From Alphaproteobacteria bacterium (GTDB lineage Bacteria; Pseudomonadota; Alphaproteobacteria; Rs-D84), in the NCBI GenBank assembly GCA_017472065.1, contig JAFURB010000003.1:16524-80523 (forward strand): a stretch of DNA of 64,000 bases. The letters are read 5' to 3'. The position numbers and the translations under genes are program-made. The first letter of the stretch is position 1. Each line of letters begins with the position of its first letter. The notes beneath the pieces were generated by a model. The model was given only the letters and a program-made list of their open reading frames with translations. It did not search any database and had not been told where the DNA came from. Of this stretch, positions 13,990 to 22,278 are shown piece by piece.

Positions 13990-14329
13990 CTACGTCTTGC
14001 GCCACGCCGTCGCAAACGCTTTCAATATCAGATGGTTGTTTCCTGTAATGCTTAGCGTGCCATTGTGTCCGCCCCTAAATCTGGTGTTGGCATATCGGCG
14101 CAGCACAACCGGTCGCACAATCGTCACATTATCGCTATTTACCATATATTCCATTGGACTGTTATTATGATTGATATGGTATGTAGATAAAAATGAATTG
14201 TACAACCGTGGGTTGATGTTGATGCAGAATATCAGTTGTTCTTGCGAATAAACTGCCTGTTCAATCATAACGCGAACCAATTCTCGTCTTTGCAGGTATG
14301 ACAGATCTTCCCACTCAATCCGTTTTAAT
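13990..14329 (-). pseudogene. Truncated internal fragment of a serine recombinase gene (copy 2 of the duplicated segment, 14002-14329)
   Basis: The 96-aa ORF and the sequence upstream of it are roughly 85-90% identical to residues ~335-440 of the recombinase at 2375-3967. The catalytic N-domain and the C-terminal end are both missing. Confidence 0.7.
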
Positions 14330-14357
14330 ATGCTGGTTGGCTTTTTGCAAGGTTAAG

Positions 14358-14465
14358 GAAAAAATAAAGCAGACACCGAAGTGTCTGCTTGAAATGGTGT
14401 CCACATTCACAAGAATGCTTCCTTATTAACGACTAGACATCTAATTCCAACTTGATTTTATTCGT
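14358..14465 (-). ncRNA. tracrRNA (trans-activating CRISPR RNA)
   Basis: Plus-strand 14433-14450 CTAGACATCTAATTCCAA is the exact reverse complement of the repeat core TTGGAATTAGATGTCTAG. The minus-strand RNA reads ...AAUCAAGUUGGAAUUAGAUGUCUAGUCGUUAAUAAGGAAGCAUUC...GCAGACACUUCGGUGUCUGCUUUAUUUUUU: anti-repeat, then UCGUUAAUAAGG (nexus-like; compare SpCas9 tracr AAGUUAAAAUAAGG), then an intrinsic terminator (hairpin 14369-14388 plus U run). The 5' end is not defined. Confidence 0.7.
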
Positions 14466-14573
14466 TAAGTCACCACTGGCATGATTATATCACTTGTATA
14501 AATAATGTCAAATAGTTTGATTTTATGCCCAATATTGTATACCATAATTACAAATTATTACAAAGGTGCGGAC

Positions 14574-17500
14574 ATGAAGTACAAACTTGGTTTAGATTTA
14601 GGCAGCACATCACTTGGTTGGGCTGTGGTTGAATTGGGGGATAATGATGAAATTTTGCGTTTGGTTGATATGGGTGTCCGCATCTTTCCAGATGGTCAGG
14701 AGCATTCGCCAACTGGCGTAAAGAGTTTGGCCAGTGTTCGTTCGGAAAAGAAACAGCAAAGACTTCAGACAGACCGTCGCAAGATGCGAAGAAAACAACT
14801 GTTTAGCAAATTGGTTGAAACAGGATTGTTACCGACAGATAAAGAAATGCTAAAAGAATTATTAAATCCTGGGATTGGAAATGGGAATCGAACCAATCCA
14901 TATGAATTGCGAAACAAGGCTGTTGAAGAACAAGTATCGTTGTATGAGTTAGGGCGTATTTTATGGCATTTATCCAAACATCGTGGATTTTCGGGTAAAC
15001 GAGATCAGGATATTGATATACAAAGTACAAAACAACAGGTCGAGCCATCAGAAACCGATAACGCCAAAGAAGCAAAAAATGTTAATAAAAGAATTGAACG
15101 GTTGCGCCATGAAATCGCAAGTGCAGGGGTTAAGACTTTGGGGCAATACTTACATAAGAAATATGAAGAAAACAAGTCCGTTCGTTTTACTGCGCTTGAG
15201 GCCAGTACAGGTCAATCATCTGGATTCCCCAGCAGGAAACTTTATCAAGAAGAATTTGAAACTATATGGAAAAAACAAGAAAAGTATTATCCAAATATAT
15301 TAAACGAGCAGTTAAAAAAAGAGTTACGTGATGATATAATGTATTTTCAGCGACCATTGGCACAGCAACCAGTCGGAAAGTGTAAATTTGAGAAGTCTGA
15401 AGATAGAATCGCAAAGTGTTATCCATTATATCAGGAATATCGAATTTTGCAGGATATTAATGATTTAGAATTGGATGGCACACCGTTACCTGATGAGTAT
15501 CGTATGGCAATCTATCATATGCTTATGAATCCTAATGCTGTTGATGAAATGATTGACGGAAATGGGCGATTGTCGTTTGATAAAATTCGCGAGCACTTGA
15601 ATATTATCGGCAGATTTAATTTGGAACATATTGGTAATCGTGGATTGTTGTGTAACAAGACAAACAAAGTTATGTCTTCTGATGCAGTGTTTGGTGACAA
15701 ATGGTTTGACTTTGATGCAGAAACCCAGGAAAAAATAATTTACGAGATTACGGCTTATCACAAGACAAAAAATCAAAGTAAAGAAGCTCTTCAAGAGATG
15801 GGGATAAAAGATGATGCATTGATTGAACGCTTGCTAAAAAAACACTCTTTGTTGACCAAAGGCTATTCTGAATTGTCTGCGATGGCAATAAAAAGGGTGT
15901 TGCCAGCCATGAAAAATGGAAAAAAATGGCACGAAGCGGCAGCGGAGAAATACGGAAAACACACGGTTGTCAGACCGTATTATACATTTGGGTATAATCC
16001 ACCCAAGCAATTACCAGACTACAGAAAATTATTTCACGAATCTCTTACCAATGGAAAAATTGGCAATGTGACAGTGCATATTGGCTTAAATCAATTGCGT
16101 GCAGTTATTAATGCCTTGATAGAAAGATACGGTCATCCATATAGCATAGCCATTGAAATGGCGCGTGAATTAAAAATGGGTAAAAAGGCATTGGATATAT
16201 ACAGGCGAAAACAATGGCAAAACCAAAAGTTTAATATAGATGCCCGCAGAAAAATTAACGATGTCTTGGGACGTTCGTATGATAGTGCTGTGTCTTCTGG
16301 TGAAATGGAAAGGTATAAAGTATGGTATAACCTAAATCCGAAAAACGAAAATCAAAGGTATGACTGGTATGATTCTTCTGATACCCCATTGATAAGTTTA
16401 CGTGATGCCTTGTCATCGGAATATGAAATTGAACACATTATTCCACGGTCAATTGGTGGTGATGATACATGGGCAAATAAAATTTTGACCAGAAAGGATC
16501 ATAACTTAGCCAAAGGTAACATGTTGCCATATCAATATTTGTCAGAAAGCCAGCTGGCACGTGCAAAGCGCTGGGCCAAAGATTCAGATGATGTCAGAAA
16601 GACAGAATCTCAGCGCAAGGAAGAAGAAAAAGCAATTAGAGCAGGTAAACCGGTTCCTTTTGTGTTTAATTCGTTTGCGTGGCGTTTTGAATCTAATGCT
16701 GGTTCGCACATAAACAAAGATTTCAAATCACGCGATTTGAATGATACCCGCTATTTGTGCAAGGTGGCACGTGATTATTTATCATATATTTGTGTTGGTT
16801 ATTCTCATGCAGAAAAACAGCGAACCCCTTATGTTATTGCCAGTAATGGTACGATGACCAGTTTATTCAAAGATATATGGGAATTAAATGACTGTTTGCC
16901 TTATGATTATGATAAGTGGTCAATTCAGGATTGGCAACGTGATATTATGAAACAAAGAATCTTTGAACGTCTGTTCAAAGATGATCCGGAATTTGGTGTG
17001 TATGATAAAGAAAAAACAGCAAGCAAGGCAAAACAAGATGCCGAAAAAAAGCAAATAGAAGAGGAATTAAAAAATACGCCCGATTCAGAGTTTCTGAAAA
17101 TATCTAGCAGAAAGAAAGACCGAACCAACCATTATCATCATGCTCTGGATGCATTTGTGATTGCATGTTTGGACAACAAAATGGTGCAAGAAATCAATGC
17201 GCGCGCAAACGAATTTGCGGACATGCGCGACAAGTGGAACAGGCAAAATGATGCAGACAAAGAAAAAAGCTTGCAACAGATTCGCAAAGAGCAAATTCAG
17301 AAAGAATACACTAAGCCATTTGGTGGGTTTGATAAAAATCTTTTGGCAAAAACTTTGGCTGATTTGGTGGTGGCAGAAAAACAGCAACCGGATAAATTGC
17401 AGCAGTATTTGTCAGGAAAAAGCAAAGGTGTTGCTTCTTTTACACAAGATACAGCATTTGGGATTGCTGATGAAGAATATTTTGATGATGGCTATATAAT

Positions 17501-18134
17501 GTTACGTGTGAACGGCAAAACGTCCAAGGCCGATTTGAAAACATTGGTGCCCGTGTTTAACAAACAGCATCCCGAATATAAAAGATTAAAACAGCAATAT
17601 ATTGATGCGTATGCCCAGTGGCGCACGGACAAAAAAGATCGCCAGAAAATAAGAAACTTGATGGCTTGTATATCACGTGACAAGGTATTCAAGTGGTTGG
17701 CCAGTGGTGGTAATTATGCGACTGAAATTTATACAAATGGCAAAAGCGCTGTTTGGTCATCGGATATTATGTCGAATTGGTGGGCTTTGCAACGCGGCGG
17801 TCGTTTCTGGTGGCGCGATGATTATCCAAATGGAAAATGCATAATGAAATTACGCATCGGCAGCAAGATTCGTGTAATGCATGAAAACGCAACACTTTTG
17901 AAAGAACAAAGAAATATTGGGAAATGGGTGATAAGTCAGATAGAACACGGTCGTGATTTGTTGTTTCGGGTCAAAAAGTTAACAGGTACAAACATTTACT
18001 TGACGCCGGTGCATGTCGCACTTGAAAAACCCGATGATACAAAAACATGGCAGGCCTCGGCACGTTCACTACAAAAAGTATCTGCACAGATTGTTGAAAT
18101 ATCTGTTCTGGGCGATGTTGTTGAACTAAAATAA
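14574..18134 (+). CDS. cas9: Cas9 endonuclease (1186 aa), type II-C-like
   Basis: RuvC-I MKYKLGLDLGSTSLGWAV; Arg-rich bridge helix RRKMRRKQLF; HNH YEIEHIIPRSIGGDDTWANKILTRKDHNLAKGN; RuvC-III NHYHHALDAFVIA. The track ORF starts 23 codons earlier; the ATG at 14574 follows RBS AAAGG and matches the conserved Cas9 N-terminus. There is no csn2 or cas4 in the locus. Confidence 0.9.
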   Translation: MKYKLGLDLGSTSLGWAVVELGDNDEILRLVDMGVRIFPDGQEHSPTGVKSLASVRSEKKQQRLQTDRRKMRRKQLFSKLVETGLLPTDKEMLKELLNPGIGNGNRTNPYELRNKAVEEQVSLYELGRILWHLSKHRGFSGKRDQDIDIQSTKQQVEPSETDNAKEAKNVNKRIERLRHEIASAGVKTLGQYLHKKYEENKSVRFTALEASTGQSSGFPSRKLYQEEFETIWKKQEKYYPNILNEQLKKELRDDIMYFQRPLAQQPVGKCKFEKSEDRIAKCYPLYQEYRILQDINDLELDGTPLPDEYRMAIYHMLMNPNAVDEMIDGNGRLSFDKIREHLNIIGRFNLEHIGNRGLLCNKTNKVMSSDAVFGDKWFDFDAETQEKIIYEITAYHKTKNQSKEALQEMGIKDDALIERLLKKHSLLTKGYSELSAMAIKRVLPAMKNGKKWHEAAAEKYGKHTVVRPYYTFGYNPPKQLPDYRKLFHESLTNGKIGNVTVHIGLNQLRAVINALIERYGHPYSIAIEMARELKMGKKALDIYRRKQWQNQKFNIDARRKINDVLGRSYDSAVSSGEMERYKVWYNLNPKNENQRYDWYDSSDTPLISLRDALSSEYEIEHIIPRSIGGDDTWANKILTRKDHNLAKGNMLPYQYLSESQLARAKRWAKDSDDVRKTESQRKEEEKAIRAGKPVPFVFNSFAWRFESNAGSHINKDFKSRDLNDTRYLCKVARDYLSYICVGYSHAEKQRTPYVIASNGTMTSLFKDIWELNDCLPYDYDKWSIQDWQRDIMKQRIFERLFKDDPEFGVYDKEKTASKAKQDAEKKQIEEELKNTPDSEFLKISSRKKDRTNHYHHALDAFVIACLDNKMVQEINARANEFADMRDKWNRQNDADKEKSLQQIRKEQIQKEYTKPFGGFDKNLLAKTLADLVVAEKQQPDKLQQYLSGKSKGVASFTQDTAFGIADEEYFDDGYIMLRVNGKTSKADLKTLVPVFNKQHPEYKRLKQQYIDAYAQWRTDKKDRQKIRNLMACISRDKVFKWLASGGNYATEIYTNGKSAVWSSDIMSNWWALQRGGRFWWRDDYPNGKCIMKLRIGSKIRVMHENATLLKEQRNIGKWVISQIEHGRDLLFRVKKLTGTNIYLTPVHVALEKPDDTKTWQASARSLQKVSAQIVEISVLGDVVELK

Positions 18135-18464
18135 TTGTAATTGATTGGGGCGTTGTGCCAGTGCGGTTGGCATCTCGGCCTTGTCCAGGTGGATTATGTC
18201 CCCAAATTGGGTGTCTGTAAAGAACAGAATATTCACGTCCCCCGTACACGGGTTGTTGCGTTTTATTGCCCGGATATATTTTTGTGAATTTTCGCGTGTA
18301 CCTGTAAATCGCATATATACAGAGTATTGCGCCATCGAAAATCCCATGTCTTGCAGGAAATTACGAAACTGGCTTGCTGCGCGCCGTTCCTGTTTCGTTT
18401 CGGTCGGTAAATCGAACATAACCATCATCCACATGTACTTTAATCCATCAGTTCTGTATGACAT
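18126..18464 (-). CDS. cas2: Cas2
   Basis: MSYRTDGLKYMWMMVMFDLPTETKQERRAASQFRNFLQDMGF matches the type II Cas2 N-terminus (compare MSYRYMRMILMFDMPTDT). The 3' end overlaps the cas9 stop region by 9 bp, convergently. Confidence 0.85.
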   Translation of the reverse strand: MSYRTDGLKYMWMMVMFDLPTETKQERRAASQFRNFLQDMGFSMAQYSVYMRFTGTRENSQKYIRAIKRNNPCTGDVNILFFTDTQFGDIIHLDKAEMPTALAQRPNQLQLF

Positions 18465-19383
18465 TTTCAAAATCCAATTTATTTTTCTTTTCACTCAGGG
18501 AATTTACAAAATTCCAAACATCGCGTTGCATAATATTTATCAATGGTGAAAATCCAGCGCGTGTTTTAATCTCGGATTCTAAAATCATCGCCATTTGACG
18601 TTTGTCATCTGGTGTTAATTCGCGCGTTTGGTCGTCTGAACCTTGAAAAATCTGATATACAATTGCATCTACGATTGGGCGATATGGTTCCATTAAATCA
18701 TCAACCAGGCACATTGGATTTAGTTGGTTGTGGTGCTGTATTCCATATGACGGGTTTAGTCCTGCTGCAACCACCAAACGTGCCATTGCGCCCCTAATAA
18801 TTGCATATCCATAGTTTAAGAAAGCATTAATTCCACCCATCGTATGTATGCGTAAGAATCCGCCACCGAACAGGGCGGGAAAATACATGCGGGCGGCGAT
18901 TCCTTCTATATTACTGGTGTCACCAGATTGTACAACTGTTGGCAGATTTTTGATTTTGTTATCCAATCCGAAATAGTCCAATACGCGTGATTGGTTTCGA
19001 ATTTTTTCCTGAACAATCGTTTTCCATAATTGTTTTTGTAGTGGCTTGGATGAATTGACCTGTGTTTGCTGTACGGTCATTTGTCGTGTTTGTCCGATCA
19101 ATGGCGTCATTATTCCCACCGGATTATAGTTGTCGCCAATGATGATTAAAGGGATTCCATTGTCGCATAATTGGGTCATAAGATTTTGTGTAAATAAAAT
19201 GGCACGGCCTGTTGCCATTACGGCACAAATAGAATCCATTGGAACCTCGGCCAATGTGATGCCGCGTTCTTTGATGCACAAGAAACCACGGCGTGCCGTC
19301 AATTCGCGATTGTTATTAGAAATTTCAATAATGTTTGTTTGCATATCTGTTATATAAGCACAAAATATTGATTTGTCAACCAT
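18448..19383 (-). CDS. cas1: Cas1 integrase
   Basis: Type II Cas1 hallmarks: ...SGDTSNIEGIAARMYFPALFG..., ...NYGYAIIRGAMARLVVAAGLNPSYGIQHH..., ...DLMEPYRPIVD... The start may instead be the internal Met MQTNII at about 19344. Confidence 0.9.
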   Translation of the reverse strand: MVDKSIFCAYITDMQTNIIEISNNNRELTARRGFLCIKERGITLAEVPMDSICAVMATGRAILFTQNLMTQLCDNGIPLIIIGDNYNPVGIMTPLIGQTRQMTVQQTQVNSSKPLQKQLWKTIVQEKIRNQSRVLDYFGLDNKIKNLPTVVQSGDTSNIEGIAARMYFPALFGGGFLRIHTMGGINAFLNYGYAIIRGAMARLVVAAGLNPSYGIQHHNQLNPMCLVDDLMEPYRPIVDAIVYQIFQGSDDQTRELTPDDKRQMAMILESEIKTRAGFSPLINIMQRDVWNFVNSLSEKKNKLDFENVIQN

Positions 19384-19472
19384 AAGTAAGTTTCTTATAA
19401 AGAAAAAATAGCAAAACGAATCGATTTTTTGAATAAATTTGATTGTTTTTTGATTTTAGATATAACATAAAA

Positions 19473-19497
19473 GCCCCAGGAATCTGGGGACTTTTGT
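19473..19497. terminator. Hairpin/terminator between the CRISPR array and the cas1 start
   Basis: CCCCAG-GAAT-CTGGGG, with a T-rich tract on the plus strand (CTTTTGTG) and also on the minus strand (CTTTTATG). Confidence 0.45.
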
Positions 19498-19504
19498 GCT
19501 ATGG

Positions 19505-21786
19505 ATTATATCAGATTGGAATTAGATGTCTAGCCGCAACGTAGTTAAAACAAAGGAGTAAAAAATGAAAATTATATCAGATTGGAATTAGATGTCTAGC
19601 CGCAACTCGGCACGTGTGATGTATTCGTCCAATTCGATTATATCAGATTGGAATTAGATGTCTAGCCGCAACGTACAAGGCGTTTATATGGCTTAAAAAT
19701 GGATTATATCAGATTGGAATTAGATGTCTAGCCGCAACGTATATATGCACATTCGGCGGTGCTACTGGATTATATCAGATTGGAATTAGATGTCTAGCCG
19801 CAACGAATGCTTTCCCCGCCGTCGGGTTTCCATGATTATATCAGATTGGAATTAGATGTCTAGCCGCAACTGGAAGATTGGGAGCGCCACGGTTATAAAT
19901 ATTATATCAGATTGGAATTAGATGTCTAGCCGCAACAGTTGGAAATCCAACGTGAAGAAATGGAAGTATTATATCAGATTGGAATTAGATGTCTAGCCGC
20001 AACTTCAGTGGCACAGCCGCGCGCACGCCATGAATTATATCAGATTGGAATTAGATGTCTAGCCGCAACCTGCTTTTTAGTGTGTTGTAATCCGCGGAAA
20101 TTATATCAGATTGGAATTAGATGTCTAGCCGCAACTTTTTGAATAGATTGTAATAACAGATATTTATTATATCAGATTGGAATTAGATGTCTAGCCGCAA
20201 CAGTACCACCAAAGAGAAATCGTCCGGAAACATTATATCAGATTGGAATTAGATGTCTAGCCGCAACTTTGCAACAGTATGTCACAAGGCGCGGTTTATT
20301 ATATCAGATTGGAATTAGATGTCTAGCCGCAACTAGGGCGCGCCAGTTATTCAAATGAACCTTATTATATCAGATTGGAATTAGATGTCTAGCCGCAACG
20401 CCACGATACAGACCCCCGCGCCGGTGTGAATTATATCAGATTGGAATTAGATGTCTAGCCGCAACCGACACACACATTATTATATATAACACTGGATTAT
20501 ATCAGATTGGAATTAGATGTCTAGCCGCAACATCGCACGGCTTGCCTTTTCACTAAACACAATTATATCAGATTGGAATTAGATGTCTAGCCGCAACGGG
20601 TGACATTGTTGCACACCGTAAGCAATTATTATATCAGATTGGAATTAGATGTCTAGCCGCAACCAATTTACCGGCAATTTCAAATGCAATTTGATTATAT
20701 CAGATTGGAATTAGATGTCTAGCCGCAACTCCTTATGCTTGTGGCGGTGTTGTTGGTTTATTATATCAGATTGGAATTAGATGTCTAGCCGCAACATATA
20801 ATTTGTCCCCGTTATGATTTTCTTTATTATATCAGATTGGAATTAGATGTCTAGCCGCAACGGATTATACCAAAAGTCATGTCCATGTTCAATTATATCA
20901 GATTGGAATTAGATGTCTAGCCGCAACATTCTGGTGAAAAGTTCATTGTTTATACCCATTATATCAGATTGGAATTAGATGTCTAGCCGCAACGTTTCCC
21001 GCCACCAGATGAATAAAAATTTTATTATATCAGATTGGAATTAGATGTCTAGCCGCAACGACCTCAATCCCCACGTCCGTGGTATAACCATTATATCAGA
21101 TTGGAATTAGATGTCTAGCCGCAACATTTGCGTACGAACACGATTTGAACGGCAAATTATATCAGATTGGAATTAGATGTCTAGCCGCAACTGATAAATT
21201 GCATTCCAAACGGCGGTAAATATTATATCAGATTGGAATTAGATGTCTAGCCGCAACTAGCAATCTGGGGAGATAAAAACATTATTGATTATATCAGATT
21301 GGAATTAGATGTCTAGCCGCAACGATATAAAAACTTAGGAGCACTTGATTTCAATTATATCAGATTGGAATTAGATGTCTAGCCGCAACATACTGATATA
21401 TTAAAGTCGATTCTTAACTATTATATCAGATTGGAATTAGATGTCTAGCCGCAACACTGAGTTAGGTCTTATTACTTTAGATGAAAATTATATCAGATTG
21501 GAATTAGATGTCTAGCCGCAACAGGAACCGACTACTGTTATTCACTTGACATATTATATCAGATTGGAATTAGATGTCTAGCCGCAACATATCTTCAAAT
21601 GCCATCGCATCCTTAACCATTATATCAGATTGGAATTAGATGTCTAGCCGCAACGTTACAAATGATGATTGATGATGCTCATTAATTATATCAGATTGGA
21701 ATTAGATGTCTAGCCGCAACCTCTGGCATTATCTGCACCATCTACACACAATTATATCAGATTGGAATTAGATGTCTAGCCGCAAC
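19505..21786 (-). CRISPR. CRISPR array: 35 direct repeats of 36 bp and 34 spacers of 29-31 bp; crRNA inferred to be a minus-strand transcript
   Basis: Plus-strand repeat ATTATATCAGATTGGAATTAGATGTCTAGCCGCAAC, period ~66 bp, first repeat 19505-19540, last 21751-21786. In crRNA orientation the repeat is GTTGCGGCTAGACATCTAATTCCAATCTGATATAAT. Strand is inferred from the tracrRNA anti-repeat orientation. Confidence 0.95.
21751..21759 (-). promoter_or_regulatory. Representative intra-repeat extended -10 element (TGATATAAT) at the 3' end of each repeat in crRNA orientation
   Basis: On the minus strand each repeat ends ...CTGATATAAT, which is TGnTATAAT. This would start transcription a few nt into the adjacent spacer, as described for Neisseria and Campylobacter type II-C arrays. 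Confidence 0.5.
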
Positions 21787-21981
21787 CGCGATGGTGGTGG
21801 TCATGTGCATATCAAAACGGGTCATCCCCGTTCGTGGTTACGGGGATAGTAATTATTGGTTGTAATCTTATTATGCTTGTATTCATAATTATGTTCAAGT
21901 GTCTTTTATAAGATGATTTTCATATGATGGGTATCTTTATACCTCTTTTCTTTGTGTGAAATATATGATATAATACCAAAC

Positions 21982-22278
21982 ATGAGAAAGACAATATTGG
22001 CAATTTTATTGCTGGGGTTGACTGGATGTATGTCTGGGACACCCAATGGTGAATATGTGGATGCACCTGTGGAATGTGCGGGTGATTGTTCTGGGGTGAA
22101 TTTTTCCATGCCAAATGGAAATGACCTGAAACTGGAAACAGATCGTCATGTTGTACATGTAACGGCGGATCCAAACACAAATTATGCATACTATGTATGG
22201 ACGGGGGATAAATCATACGATGATGATCCCGACATCATGGTCGAAAATGGCGAAGCCTATGTATTAACTGTTGAATAA
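21982..22278 (+). CDS. Small lipoprotein (99 aa)
   Basis: MRKTILAILLLGLTGCMSG lipobox. Followed by a bidirectional terminator. Confidence 0.55.
   Translation: MRKTILAILLLGLTGCMSGTPNGEYVDAPVECAGDCSGVNFSMPNGNDLKLETDRHVVHVTADPNTNYAYYVWTGDKSYDDDPDIMVENGEAYVLTVE

What the first reader, a model, noticed from the sequence alone, without database searches (positions are those of the whole stretch)
19505..21786. Every CRISPR repeat carries an extended -10 promoter (TGATATAAT), implying repeat-internal transcription initiation
In the crRNA (minus-strand) orientation the repeat GTTGCGGCTAGACATCTAATTCCAATCTGATATAAT ends in a perfect TGnTATAAT. In Neisseria meningitidis and Campylobacter jejuni type II-C systems such repeat-embedded promoters produce crRNAs whose 5' ends lie inside spacers, independently of leader transcription and RNase III. 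The orientation I infer from the tracrRNA agrees with the orientation that produces this promoter, so the two observations support each other.
Basis: partly seen in the sequence, partly recalled or inferred. Interest (0 to 1): 0.65.

Follow-up and report, generated by a model that had tools for sequence, protein, structure and literature searches.

The report
Promoter inside every CRISPR repeat
Each of the 35 repeats of this type II-C CRISPR array contains a near-perfect bacterial promoter pointing into the next spacer, which is a new example, in an uncultured gut alphaproteobacterium, of a guide-RNA production route already shown experimentally in Neisseria and Campylobacter.

Summary
Window 19505-21786 holds 35 identical 36-nt repeats that read GTTGCGGCTAGACATCTAATTCCAATCTGATATAAT on the minus strand. 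Each ends in TGATATAAT.

A clear tracrRNA gene on the minus strand (perfect promoter, anti-repeat, terminator) fixes the crRNA strand. Cas9, Cas1 and Cas2 without csn2 or cas4 make this type II-C.

Across 52 distinct 36-nt repeats from related loci, the last hexamer is TAnnnT in 94%. The conserved and variable positions match a -10 element. The tracrRNA does not pair with these bases. In 21 decayed first repeats, 97 mismatches fall in positions 1-18 and only 2 in the terminal hexamer.

A conserved hairpin/terminator follows the last repeat.

Repeat-embedded promoters are already treated as a general II-C trait, so this is a new member of a known kind. There is no transcript evidence, so transcription itself remains inferred.

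Side observations may be more interesting than the finding. cas1-cas2 are inverted and lie downstream of the array. Almost the whole cas9 gene has been exchanged between two lineages about 27% identical that share the tracrRNA, cas1, cas2 and repeat.

The parts
19505..21786 (-). CRISPR array: 35 identical 36-nt repeats and 34 spacers (30-31 nt). crRNA sense is the minus strand.
21751..21778 (-). Promoter inside the first (upstream-most) repeat: TAGACA at 21778..21773, a 16-nt spacer containing TG at 21759..21758, and TATAAT at 21756..21751. The same layout recurs in all 35 repeats at a period of 66-67 nt.
   Evidence: Conservation across relatives.
19505..19532 (-). Promoter inside the last (cas1-proximal) repeat: TAGACA at 19532..19527 and TATAAT at 19510..19505. 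It points at the hairpin below, not at a spacer.
19462..19502 (-). Hairpin/intrinsic terminator directly after the last repeat. The core is CCCCAGATTCCTGGGG (19489..19474), flanked by an A-tract and a T-tract. MFE is -20.4 kcal/mol and z is -5.8.
   Evidence: Present in 92% of 59 distinct related loci, against 12.5% of upstream flanks. A strict terminator is found in 28/65 loci against 2.1% of random segments.
14484..14511 (-). tracrRNA promoter, TTGACA-16-TGATATAAT (12/12 plus TG). It has the same extended -10 9-mer as the repeats.
   Evidence: Conserved in relatives.
14359..14477 (-). Predicted tracrRNA, about 118 nt. Anti-repeat at 14461..14426, terminator hairpin at 14390..14367, then TATTTTTT.
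   Evidence: MFE -34.2, z -3.3; pairs with repeat positions 4-31.
14574..18134 (+). cas9. The open frame starts at 14505, but relatives start at MKYKLGLDLG, which is 14574. RuvC and HNH motifs are intact.
   Evidence: TIGR01865, 489 bits; nearest solved structures are Nme Cas9.
18126..18464 (-). cas2. The frame is open up to 18494. The start is placed by analogy with the gene call in the 98%-identical locus L080. Its 3' end overlaps the cas9 stop, and the two genes converge.
18448..19344 (-). cas1 (type II, NMENI class). The true start is the ATG at 19344 (MQTNIIEIS).
19345..19379 (-). cas1's own promoter: TTGACA (19379..19374), 17 nt, TATATA (19356..19351), then 6 nt before the ATG. This predicts a leaderless mRNA.
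   Evidence: Read. The same geometry is seen in L002, L018, L023 and L040.
19413..19425 (-). Conserved motif ATCGATTCGTTTT between the terminator and the cas1 promoter. Function unknown.
   Evidence: (present in all 11 inverted-layout loci examined).
21824..21847 (-). Hairpin ATCCCCGTAACCACGAACGGGGAT, 38 nt upstream of the first repeat. It may insulate the array from outside transcription or mask an extraneous crRNA.
   Evidence: For the concept see PMC12080349.

Best explanation
This is the array of a type II-C CRISPR-Cas9 system in an uncultured, low-GC gut alphaproteobacterium whose closest relatives are 'Candidatus Enterousia' genomes assembled from metagenomes.

Shown from sequence: each 36-nt repeat contains a sigma-70-type promoter on the crRNA strand. 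It consists of a -35-like TAGACA at repeat positions 9-14, a 16-bp spacer, TG at positions 28-29 and TATAAT at positions 31-36.

Inferred: RNA polymerase starts at about nt 6-8 of the spacer that follows each repeat. The primary transcript therefore already carries the mature 5' end of a 23-25-nt guide. Transcripts run on through downstream repeats. The repeat portion (positions 4-31) pairs with the tracrRNA, and Cas9 binds the duplex. RNase III can cut the duplex to set the 3' end, but by analogy with Neisseria it may not be essential.

Inferred: transcripts from the array, and the spacer-less transcript from the last repeat's promoter, stop at a conserved hairpin/terminator that starts about 3-15 nt after the last repeat. 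This shields cas1-cas2, which have their own promoter, from array transcription. New spacers would enter at this downstream, cas1-proximal end.
For: - Each of the 35 repeats matches the promoter consensus at 11/12 positions plus TG, on the minus strand only.
- The crRNA strand is fixed by a complete tracrRNA gene. The arrangement is the same in 17/18 relatives.
- Across the 52 distinct 36-nt repeats (of 54 distinct repeats in all) from 66 loci whose Cas9 is 27-75% identical, TAnnnT occupies the last six positions in 94%. It occurs at essentially no other register and not at the corresponding position on the other strand. T31, A32 and T36 are each 98% conserved, A34 is 90%, and positions 33 and 35 vary. 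This is the known profile of a -10 hexamer.
- The terminal hexamer is not consistently complementary to the tracrRNA, while positions 1-27 co-vary with it.
- The first repeat is mutated in 21/46 arrays, the last in 2/58 and inner repeats in 16/908. Mismatches in first repeats number 97 in positions 1-18, 8 in positions 19-30 and 2 in positions 31-36. The first repeat has no upstream spacer and is far from the integration end, so a promoter for spacer 1 is the one known role left for its 3' half.
- Within the same window, TGATATAAT is the -10 of the tracrRNA gene and sits 7 nt before the ATG of a lipoprotein gene. TGNTATAAT is also enriched outside the array, 14 copies against about 5 expected.
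- A hairpin follows the last repeat in 92% of loci (median z -5.0), against 12.5% of upstream flanks (p = 1.4e-14).
- Experimental precedent exists in N. meningitidis, C. jejuni and C. cellulolyticum (PMC5965381, PMC7038990, PMC12477760, PMC12080349).
Against: - There are no transcript data for this organism, so start sites, promoter strength and the role of RNase III are all inferred.
- The 35 repeats are copies of one sequence and count as one observation.
- The repeat's 3' end is also its leader-proximal end, so recognition by the Cas1-Cas2 integrase could contribute to its conservation.
- Loss of the 5' part of first repeats could partly reflect truncation from outside rather than selection on the 3' half.
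- The -35-like hexamer lies inside the crRNA:tracrRNA duplex, so its conservation (5/6 or better in 48% of repeats) cannot be assigned to promoter function.
- A weaker promoter-like site (TTGAAC-17-CATAAT, 21898..21870) lies upstream of the array and could add a long pre-crRNA.
- No protospacers were found, so there is no PAM-based confirmation of the strand.
Confidence: 0.8

Rival explanations
1. [quoted passage not shown] On this view its resemblance to a promoter is incidental and contributes little transcription.
For: - The conserved end abuts the leader side, where II-C systems insert spacers (PMC12080349).
- The last repeat is almost never mutated: 2/58.
- A strongly conserved palindrome abuts this end. 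It could be part of an integration signal.
Against: - Conservation follows the TAnnnT pattern of a -10 element, with positions 33 and 35 free. An integrase site has no reason to show that pattern.
- The hexamer is equally preserved in leader-distal first repeats, where no integration takes place.
- The identical 9-mer drives the tracrRNA gene in the same locus.
- Promoter activity of the equivalent element has been shown in Neisseria and Campylobacter.
- The two roles are not mutually exclusive.
Confidence: 0.1
2. The array is expressed mainly as one long pre-crRNA from a promoter upstream of the first repeat and is matured by tracrRNA and RNase III, as in type II-A. The repeat promoters are silent or minor in the native host.
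For: - A promoter-like site lies upstream at 21898..21870, with 9/12 matches.
- The repeat:anti-repeat duplex is long, about 27 bp, and is a good RNase III substrate.
- The host's sigma factor preferences have not been measured.
Against: - The repeat promoters (11/12 plus TG) are far closer to consensus than the upstream site.
- A hairpin lies between that site and the array (21847..21824).
- The first-repeat decay pattern points to a function for the 3' half of that repeat.
- Promoters in the same window use the same motifs.
Confidence: 0.08
3. The array is transcribed from the plus strand, so the promoter-like motif lies on the non-functional strand.
For: - The hairpins at both ends of the array have A- and T-tracts on both sides and could terminate transcription in either direction.
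Against: - The tracrRNA has its promoter, anti-repeat and terminator all on the minus strand, and it can pair only with a minus-strand repeat transcript.
- No promoter-like site of 9/12 or better lies on the plus strand inside the repeats.
- Repeat decay occurs only at the end that is upstream in the minus-strand sense. This matches the known II-C polarity.
Confidence: 0.02

Closest known systems
Neisseria meningitidis type II-C CRISPR-Cas9 (Zhang et al. 2013; reviewed in PMC5965381; PMC12477760)
   Same: - 36-nt repeats beginning GTTG and ending in an extended -10 (TGnTAnAAT).
- 30-nt spacers.
- crRNA strand opposite to cas9.
- Only cas9, cas1 and cas2, plus a tracrRNA.
- The leader-adjacent repeat has no spacer to transcribe.
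- The nearest solved Cas9 structures are the Nme Cas9s.
   Different: - Cas9 is distant (phmmer E about 1e-37 and alignment over only the N-terminal two thirds) and about 100 residues longer.
- The repeat here also has a -35-like TAGACA at a 16-bp spacing. As I recall the Nme repeat, it has none at that position.
- cas1-cas2 are inverted and lie downstream of the array on the crRNA strand.
- The tracrRNA is divergent from cas9 and upstream of it.
Campylobacter jejuni type II-C array (Dugar et al. 2013, PMC3656092; Feussner et al. 2025, PMC12080349)
   Same: - A promoter in each repeat.
- New spacers enter at the transcription-downstream end.
- The first ('extra') repeat tends to decay in its first 15 nt.
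- Hairpins or terminators lie upstream of the array.
   Different: - C. jejuni promoters rely on a -10 box alone.
- Here the first repeat of the window's array is intact, and the most conspicuous conserved structure is on the downstream (leader) side. That paper did not analyse the downstream side.
Clostridium cellulolyticum H10 type II-C (PMC7038990)
   Same: The terminal nine nucleotides of the repeat resemble an extended -10, and the array is transcribed opposite to the cas genes.
   Different: In that case too, promoter function was inferred from sequence and from heterologous small-RNA sequencing. It comes from a different phylum, and no -35 was noted.
Type II-A arrays (S. pyogenes and S. 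thermophilus)
   Same: crRNA maturation depends on a tracrRNA, and the effector is Cas9.
   Different: II-A arrays have a single leader promoter upstream, add spacers at the upstream end, need RNase III and have no promoter in the repeat.

Membership tests
Type II-C CRISPR-Cas | Cas9 effector with RuvC and HNH nuclease motifs | tested here: met
   - Pfam RuvC_III and HNH_4 both pass their cut-offs. Cas9_a is just below its cut-off (26.2 against 26.9 bits).
- TIGR01865 scores 489 bits against a cut-off of 100.
- The catalytic D31, H644, N667 and the HYHHALD motif are invariant in the alignment.
- The nearest solved structures are the II-C Nme Cas9s.
Type II-C CRISPR-Cas | The adaptation module is cas1 and cas2 only, with no csn2 (II-A) or cas4 (II-B) | tested here: met
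   Cas1 matches cas1_NMENI and Cas2 matches TIGR01573. The other ORFs between 12.9 and 22.3 kb have no Cas family hits.
Type II-C CRISPR-Cas | A tracrRNA with an anti-repeat complementary to the repeat | tested here: met
   The anti-repeat at 14461..14426 pairs with repeat positions 4-31. It is flanked by a promoter and a terminator.
Type II-C CRISPR-Cas | Canonical gene order cas9-cas1-cas2 on one strand, with the array transcribed towards them | tested here: not met
   The array is on the strand opposite cas9, as expected. However, cas1-cas2 are inverted and lie downstream of the array on the crRNA strand. This layout is seen in the window, in 11 of the 79 related loci and in L080. Gene order is typical of II-C rather than defining, so this marks a layout variant and does not exclude membership.
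Repeat-embedded crRNA promoters (Neisseria/Campylobacter type) | A -10 (usually extended -10) element at the 3' end of every repeat, in crRNA sense | tested here: met
   TGATATAAT is present in 35/35 repeats. TAnnnT is conserved in 94% of related repeats.
Repeat-embedded crRNA promoters (Neisseria/Campylobacter type) | Primary (5'-triphosphate) crRNA ends inside spacers, about 6 nt from the repeat | not testable with these tools
   This needs dRNA-seq, Cappable-seq or primer extension. No transcript data are available.
Repeat-embedded crRNA promoters (Neisseria/Campylobacter type) | crRNA function independent of RNase III processing | not testable with these tools
   This requires genetics in the host or in a heterologous system.
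Repeat-embedded crRNA promoters (Neisseria/Campylobacter type) | Spacer acquisition at the transcription-downstream end, with decay of the upstream-most repeat | tested here: inconclusive
   In relatives the first repeat is mutated in 21/46 arrays and the last in 2/58, which fits. In the window all 35 repeats are identical, and no sister array shares spacers with it, so the polarity of this particular array is not shown.

The most novel reading that the evidence does not exclude
In the inverted-layout lineage, the array is a battery of 35 near-consensus promoters that all fire towards cas1-cas2. The conserved hairpin abutting the last repeat would then be more than a passive terminator. It would be a dual-purpose leader element. 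As DNA, it would mark the integration site for Cas1-Cas2. As RNA, it would act as a leaky or regulated attenuator, letting a fraction of array transcription read into cas1-cas2. Expression of the adaptation genes would then be tied to array length and activity.
Probability: 0.12. Interest if true: 0.6.

Novelty: new member of a known kind. Interest (0 to 1): 0.3.

Why it matters
For the finding itself the value is modest. It extends a mechanism proven in two pathogens to a divergent Cas9 clade from uncultured gut Alphaproteobacteria. It also adds comparative evidence that the repeat's 3' end is maintained as a promoter: the -10-specific conservation profile, the lack of tracrRNA pairing, and the sparing of this half in decayed first repeats.

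There are practical uses. The strand, tracrRNA and guide length (about 23-25 nt) of a new 1186-aa Cas9 can be predicted. Such arrays should express in E. coli without an added promoter.

The by-products may matter more:
- A hairpin abutting the leader-side repeat is present in about 90% of the loci examined.
- There is a lineage with an inverted adaptation module.
- Nearly the whole cas9 gene has been exchanged between lineages 25-32% identical that keep the same guide RNAs. This bears on how tightly Cas9 and its tracrRNA must co-evolve.

Tried and rejected
- **Protospacer/PAM search for independent confirmation of the strand.** The whole array against 50,697 phage records gave only chance-level hits, E 0.2-0.7. 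The 3' 24-mers of spacers 30, 31 and 33 had no match in IMG/VR. 147 spacers from 15 loci had no convincing match in any fetched DNA. I abandoned this line.
- **Acquisition polarity from shared spacers.** The 99%-identical locus L080 ends before the array. Five metagenome contigs carry the exact repeat, but none shares a spacer with the window.
- **Nucleotide bias at the predicted start positions.** Spacer nt 6-8 show no bias in 804 spacers. This is expected if spacers are taken at random, so it is uninformative.
- **Rfam.** It found only tRNAs and has no tracrRNA or CRISPR family hit here.
- **Multiple alignment of the post-array hairpin.** It was shifted by indels and not usable for pair counting. 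I replaced it with per-locus folding.
- **Zhang et al. 2013.** The paper could not be retrieved. Its content is cited through reviews and later papers.
- **Literature search for a -35 in II-C repeats.** No paper was returned. That is absence from the held library, not proof of novelty.
- **ORF 21920..22216 (minus strand).** I rejected it as a gene. The real gene is the plus-strand lipoprotein at 21982..22278.
Full report
**What is there**

Window 19505-21786 is a CRISPR array of 35 identical 36-nt repeats. Of its 34 spacers, 32 are 30 nt and 2 are 31 nt. On the minus strand the repeat reads GTTGCGGCTAGACATCTAATTCCAATCTGATATAAT, and every copy ends in TGATATAAT.

TAGACA, a 5/6 match to TTGACA, lies at repeat positions 9-14, 16 bp upstream of TATAAT. 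Each repeat therefore matches the sigma-70 consensus at 11 of 12 positions and also has the TG of an extended -10. In the 10 kb scanned, only the tracrRNA promoter scores higher. No comparable site lies on the plus strand of the repeats.

The 35 copies are identical by descent and count as a single observation. For this base composition, the chance of TGNTATAAT at the 3' end of a 36-mer on either strand is about 8e-5.

**Locus and orientation**

- cas9 lies on the plus strand. The frame is open from 14505, but the likely start is 14574, at MKYKLGLDLG. It ends at 18134.
- cas2 (18126-18464) and cas1 (18448-19344) lie on the minus strand.
- Cas9 matches TIGR01865, and its nearest solved relatives are the N. 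meningitidis Cas9s.
- Cas1 is the type II (NMENI) form.
- No csn2 or cas4 is present.

This is therefore a type II-C system.

Immediately upstream of cas9, on the minus strand, lies a complete small-RNA gene:
- a perfect TTGACA-16-TGATATAAT promoter (14511..14484);
- a 36-nt anti-repeat (14461..14426);
- a structured tail;
- a GC-rich terminator hairpin (14390..14367) followed by TATTTTTT.

Co-folding pairs repeat positions 4-31 with this RNA. Because the tracrRNA is a minus-strand transcript, the crRNAs must be minus-strand transcripts too. That is the strand on which the repeat promoter reads.

**Is the promoter-like end more than chance?**

A genome-wide scan with a Cas9 alignment returned 79 related loci, mostly assembled from metagenomes. 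The closest are from gut Alphaproteobacteria, including 'Candidatus Enterousia'.

Arrays were found in 66 loci, and they hold 54 distinct repeats of this type. In every locus the array lies downstream of cas9 and reads GTT...TAnnnT on the strand opposite cas9.

Among the 52 distinct 36-nt repeats:
- The last hexamer is TAnnnT in 94%. It appears at essentially no other register and not at the corresponding position on the other strand.
- T31, A32 and T36 are each 98% conserved and A34 is 90%, while positions 33 and 35 vary freely. This is the known conservation profile of the sigma-70 -10 hexamer.

Across all 54 distinct repeats, a hexamer matching TTGACA at 5/6 or better sits at positions 9-14 in 48% and nowhere else. 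TG is present in 28%.

Anti-repeats were located in 17 of 18 loci checked. They are always on the strand opposite cas9 and just upstream of it. They co-vary with repeat positions 1-27, for example TTGCCA with TGGCAA in L002. They are not consistently complementary to the terminal hexamer. RNA pairing therefore explains the conservation of the 5' two thirds of the repeat but not of TATAAT.

**Evidence from decayed repeats**

- The upstream-most repeat is mutated in 21 of 46 arrays.
- The downstream-most repeat is mutated in 2 of 58.
- Inner repeats are mutated in 16 of 908.
- Within the mutated first repeats, 97 mismatches fall in positions 1-18, 8 in positions 19-30 and 2 in positions 31-36.

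The first repeat has no upstream spacer, so its 5' half is never part of a useful crRNA. It is also far from the end where II-C systems insert spacers. The one known job left for it is to promote transcription of the first spacer, and the part a promoter needs is the part that is kept.

This pattern matches what Feussner et al. 2025 reported for 364 II-C arrays (PMC12080349).

One caveat applies. Truncation from outside the array would also preferentially leave the array-proximal half of the first repeat.

**Evidence from within the window**

- The same 9-mer, TGATATAAT, is the -10 of the tracrRNA gene.
- It also sits 7 nt upstream of the ATG of a plus-strand lipoprotein gene (21966-21974; gene 21982-22278).
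- cas1 has TTGACA-17-TATATA ending 6 nt before its ATG.
- TGNTATAAT occurs 14 times outside the array against about 5 expected.

This organism therefore appears to use canonical sigma-70 motifs, with starts about 7 nt after the -10.

**What happens at the array's end**

The 50 nt after the last repeat fold into a hairpin of -20.4 kcal/mol (z = -5.8). Its core is CCCCAGATTCCTGGGG, flanked by an A-tract and a T-tract.

Such a structure is present in 92% of 59 distinct related loci (median z = -5.0). For the flank upstream of the first repeat the figure is 12.5% (median z about 0; Mann-Whitney p = 1.4e-14). By a strict terminator definition, 28 of 65 loci qualify against 2.1% of random segments.

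The stems differ in sequence between loci while pairing is kept.

This fits array transcripts, and the spacer-less transcript from the last repeat's promoter, being stopped there. It also marks the leader side of the array. It does not by itself distinguish repeat promoters from an upstream promoter.

**Comparison with what is known**

- Promoters embedded in II-C repeats were shown in N. meningitidis and C. jejuni (reviewed in PMC5965381).
- They were noted for C. cellulolyticum from the terminal nine nucleotides of the repeat (PMC7038990).
- They are now drawn as a standard II-C feature, with initiation at the 6th nt of each spacer in Neisseria (PMC12477760).

The finding is therefore a correct recognition of a known mechanism in a new and fairly divergent Cas9 clade. 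Eight relatives are 45-99% identical and everything else is 36% or lower.

The complete -35/-10 architecture looks like a minor variation. I found no paper in the held library that mentions it. My recollection is that the Neisseria and Campylobacter repeats have no -35 at that position. Because the hexamer lies within the crRNA:tracrRNA duplex, I cannot attribute its conservation to transcription.

**What remains inferred**

Actual start sites, promoter strength in the native host, and independence from RNase III and from upstream transcription are all inferred. A weaker promoter-like site lies upstream of the array (21898..21870), followed by a hairpin (21847..21824). No protospacers were found, so no PAM supports the strand assignment.

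**Things found on the way**

1. *Inverted adaptation module.* In the window, in 11 of the 79 loci and in L080, cas1-cas2 are inverted. They lie directly downstream of the array on the crRNA strand, convergent with cas9 and overlapping it.
2. *Cas9 exchange.* These loci carry two Cas9 lineages that are 25-32% identical to each other. One is about 1185-1230 aa and the other about 1094-1114 aa. They share Cas1 (72-95%), Cas2 (83-92%), a near-identical tracrRNA and the same repeat. DNA similarity between the window and L020 covers 14363-14695 and 18127 onward, and nothing in between. The first 41 residues of the L034 and L038 Cas9 are identical to the window's. Nearly the whole cas9 gene has therefore been exchanged within a conserved frame.
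3. *Mobility of the locus.* The locus that is 98% identical to the window (L080) has a different upstream neighbourhood, beginning exactly at the tracrRNA terminator.

**Verdict**

It is a new member of a known kind and of modest interest in itself.

Noticed in passing
window, every repeat, positions 9-14 (e.g. 21778..21773 and 19532..19527): Each repeat also carries a -35-like TAGACA 16 bp upstream of the -10, making a full 11/12 sigma-70 promoter. A TTGACA-like hexamer (5/6 or better) sits at the same register in 48% of 54 related repeats. It lies inside the crRNA:tracrRNA duplex, so the cause of its conservation is ambiguous.
   Followed up: yes
window 19462..19502; the equivalent position in 59 related loci: A stable hairpin, often a full intrinsic terminator, starts within about 3-15 nt of the last (leader-side) repeat in 92% of loci. 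The figure for the other flank is 12.5% (p = 1.4e-14). Stem sequences differ between loci while pairing is kept. I found no description of it in the literature I could search. It could be a terminator, an integration signal, or both.
   Followed up: partly
window 18126..19344 (cas2, cas1) relative to cas9 and the array; also L001, L002, L003, L016, L018, L020, L023, L034, L038, L040, L063, L080: The adaptation module is inverted. cas1-cas2 lie downstream of the array on the crRNA strand, convergent with cas9, and the 3' ends of cas2 and cas9 overlap by 9 nt. The other 67 loci with detectable cas genes have the canonical cas9-cas1-cas2 order.
   Followed up: partly
window 14696..18126 compared with L020 10183..13337 (also L016, L018, L023, L034, L038, L040, L063): Nearly the whole cas9 gene has been replaced in cassette fashion. 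Two Cas9 lineages 25-32% identical occupy the same frame of tracrRNA (about 90% nt identity to L020), Cas1 (95%), Cas2 and an identical repeat. Similarity stops after the GVRIFPDG motif (about codon 41) and resumes at the cas9 stop codon. Two very different Cas9 proteins therefore appear to use the same guide RNAs.
   Followed up: partly
window 19345..19379 (cas1 promoter) and 21966..21984 (lipoprotein gene): Both genes have a -10 element ending 6-7 nt before the ATG and no Shine-Dalgarno sequence, which predicts leaderless mRNAs. The cas1 geometry is conserved in L002, L018, L023 and L040.
   Followed up: partly
window 19413..19425 (minus strand): The motif ATCGATTCGTTTT lies about 80 nt downstream of the last repeat, followed by a T-rich tract. 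It is conserved in all inverted-layout loci examined and in metagenome contigs L081, L083 and L084. Its function is unknown. It could be a leader element or a regulator binding site.
   Followed up: no
window 21824..21847: An 8-bp GC-rich hairpin lies 38 nt upstream of the first repeat. It may correspond to the upstream hairpins or terminators proposed to block extraneous crRNA in II-C systems. L084 has a clear terminator at the equivalent place.
   Followed up: no
window about 14360; L080 about 5359: L080 (GCA_965319335.1) is 98.2% identical to the window from the tracrRNA terminator through cas1, but it is unrelated upstream. L080 has FtsK, WYL and YkuD genes there. The window has a helicase gene, an unassigned 328-aa ORF and an unassigned ORF fragment at 13990..14340. 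The locus seems to sit in different genomic contexts.
   Followed up: partly
L040 15979..16014 and L083: A mutated first repeat is separated from the rest of the array by about 735 nt of non-repeat sequence, possibly an insertion. L081, L082 and L083 share the same upstream flank and the same mutated first repeat (A10G), but L081 and L083 share no spacers.
   Followed up: no
L005 8715..9334: A second array with an unrelated 37-nt repeat (ATTAAAGCAGCCCCGAATTTAGAAGGGGACTAAAACT) lies upstream of cas9 in this locus.
   Followed up: no
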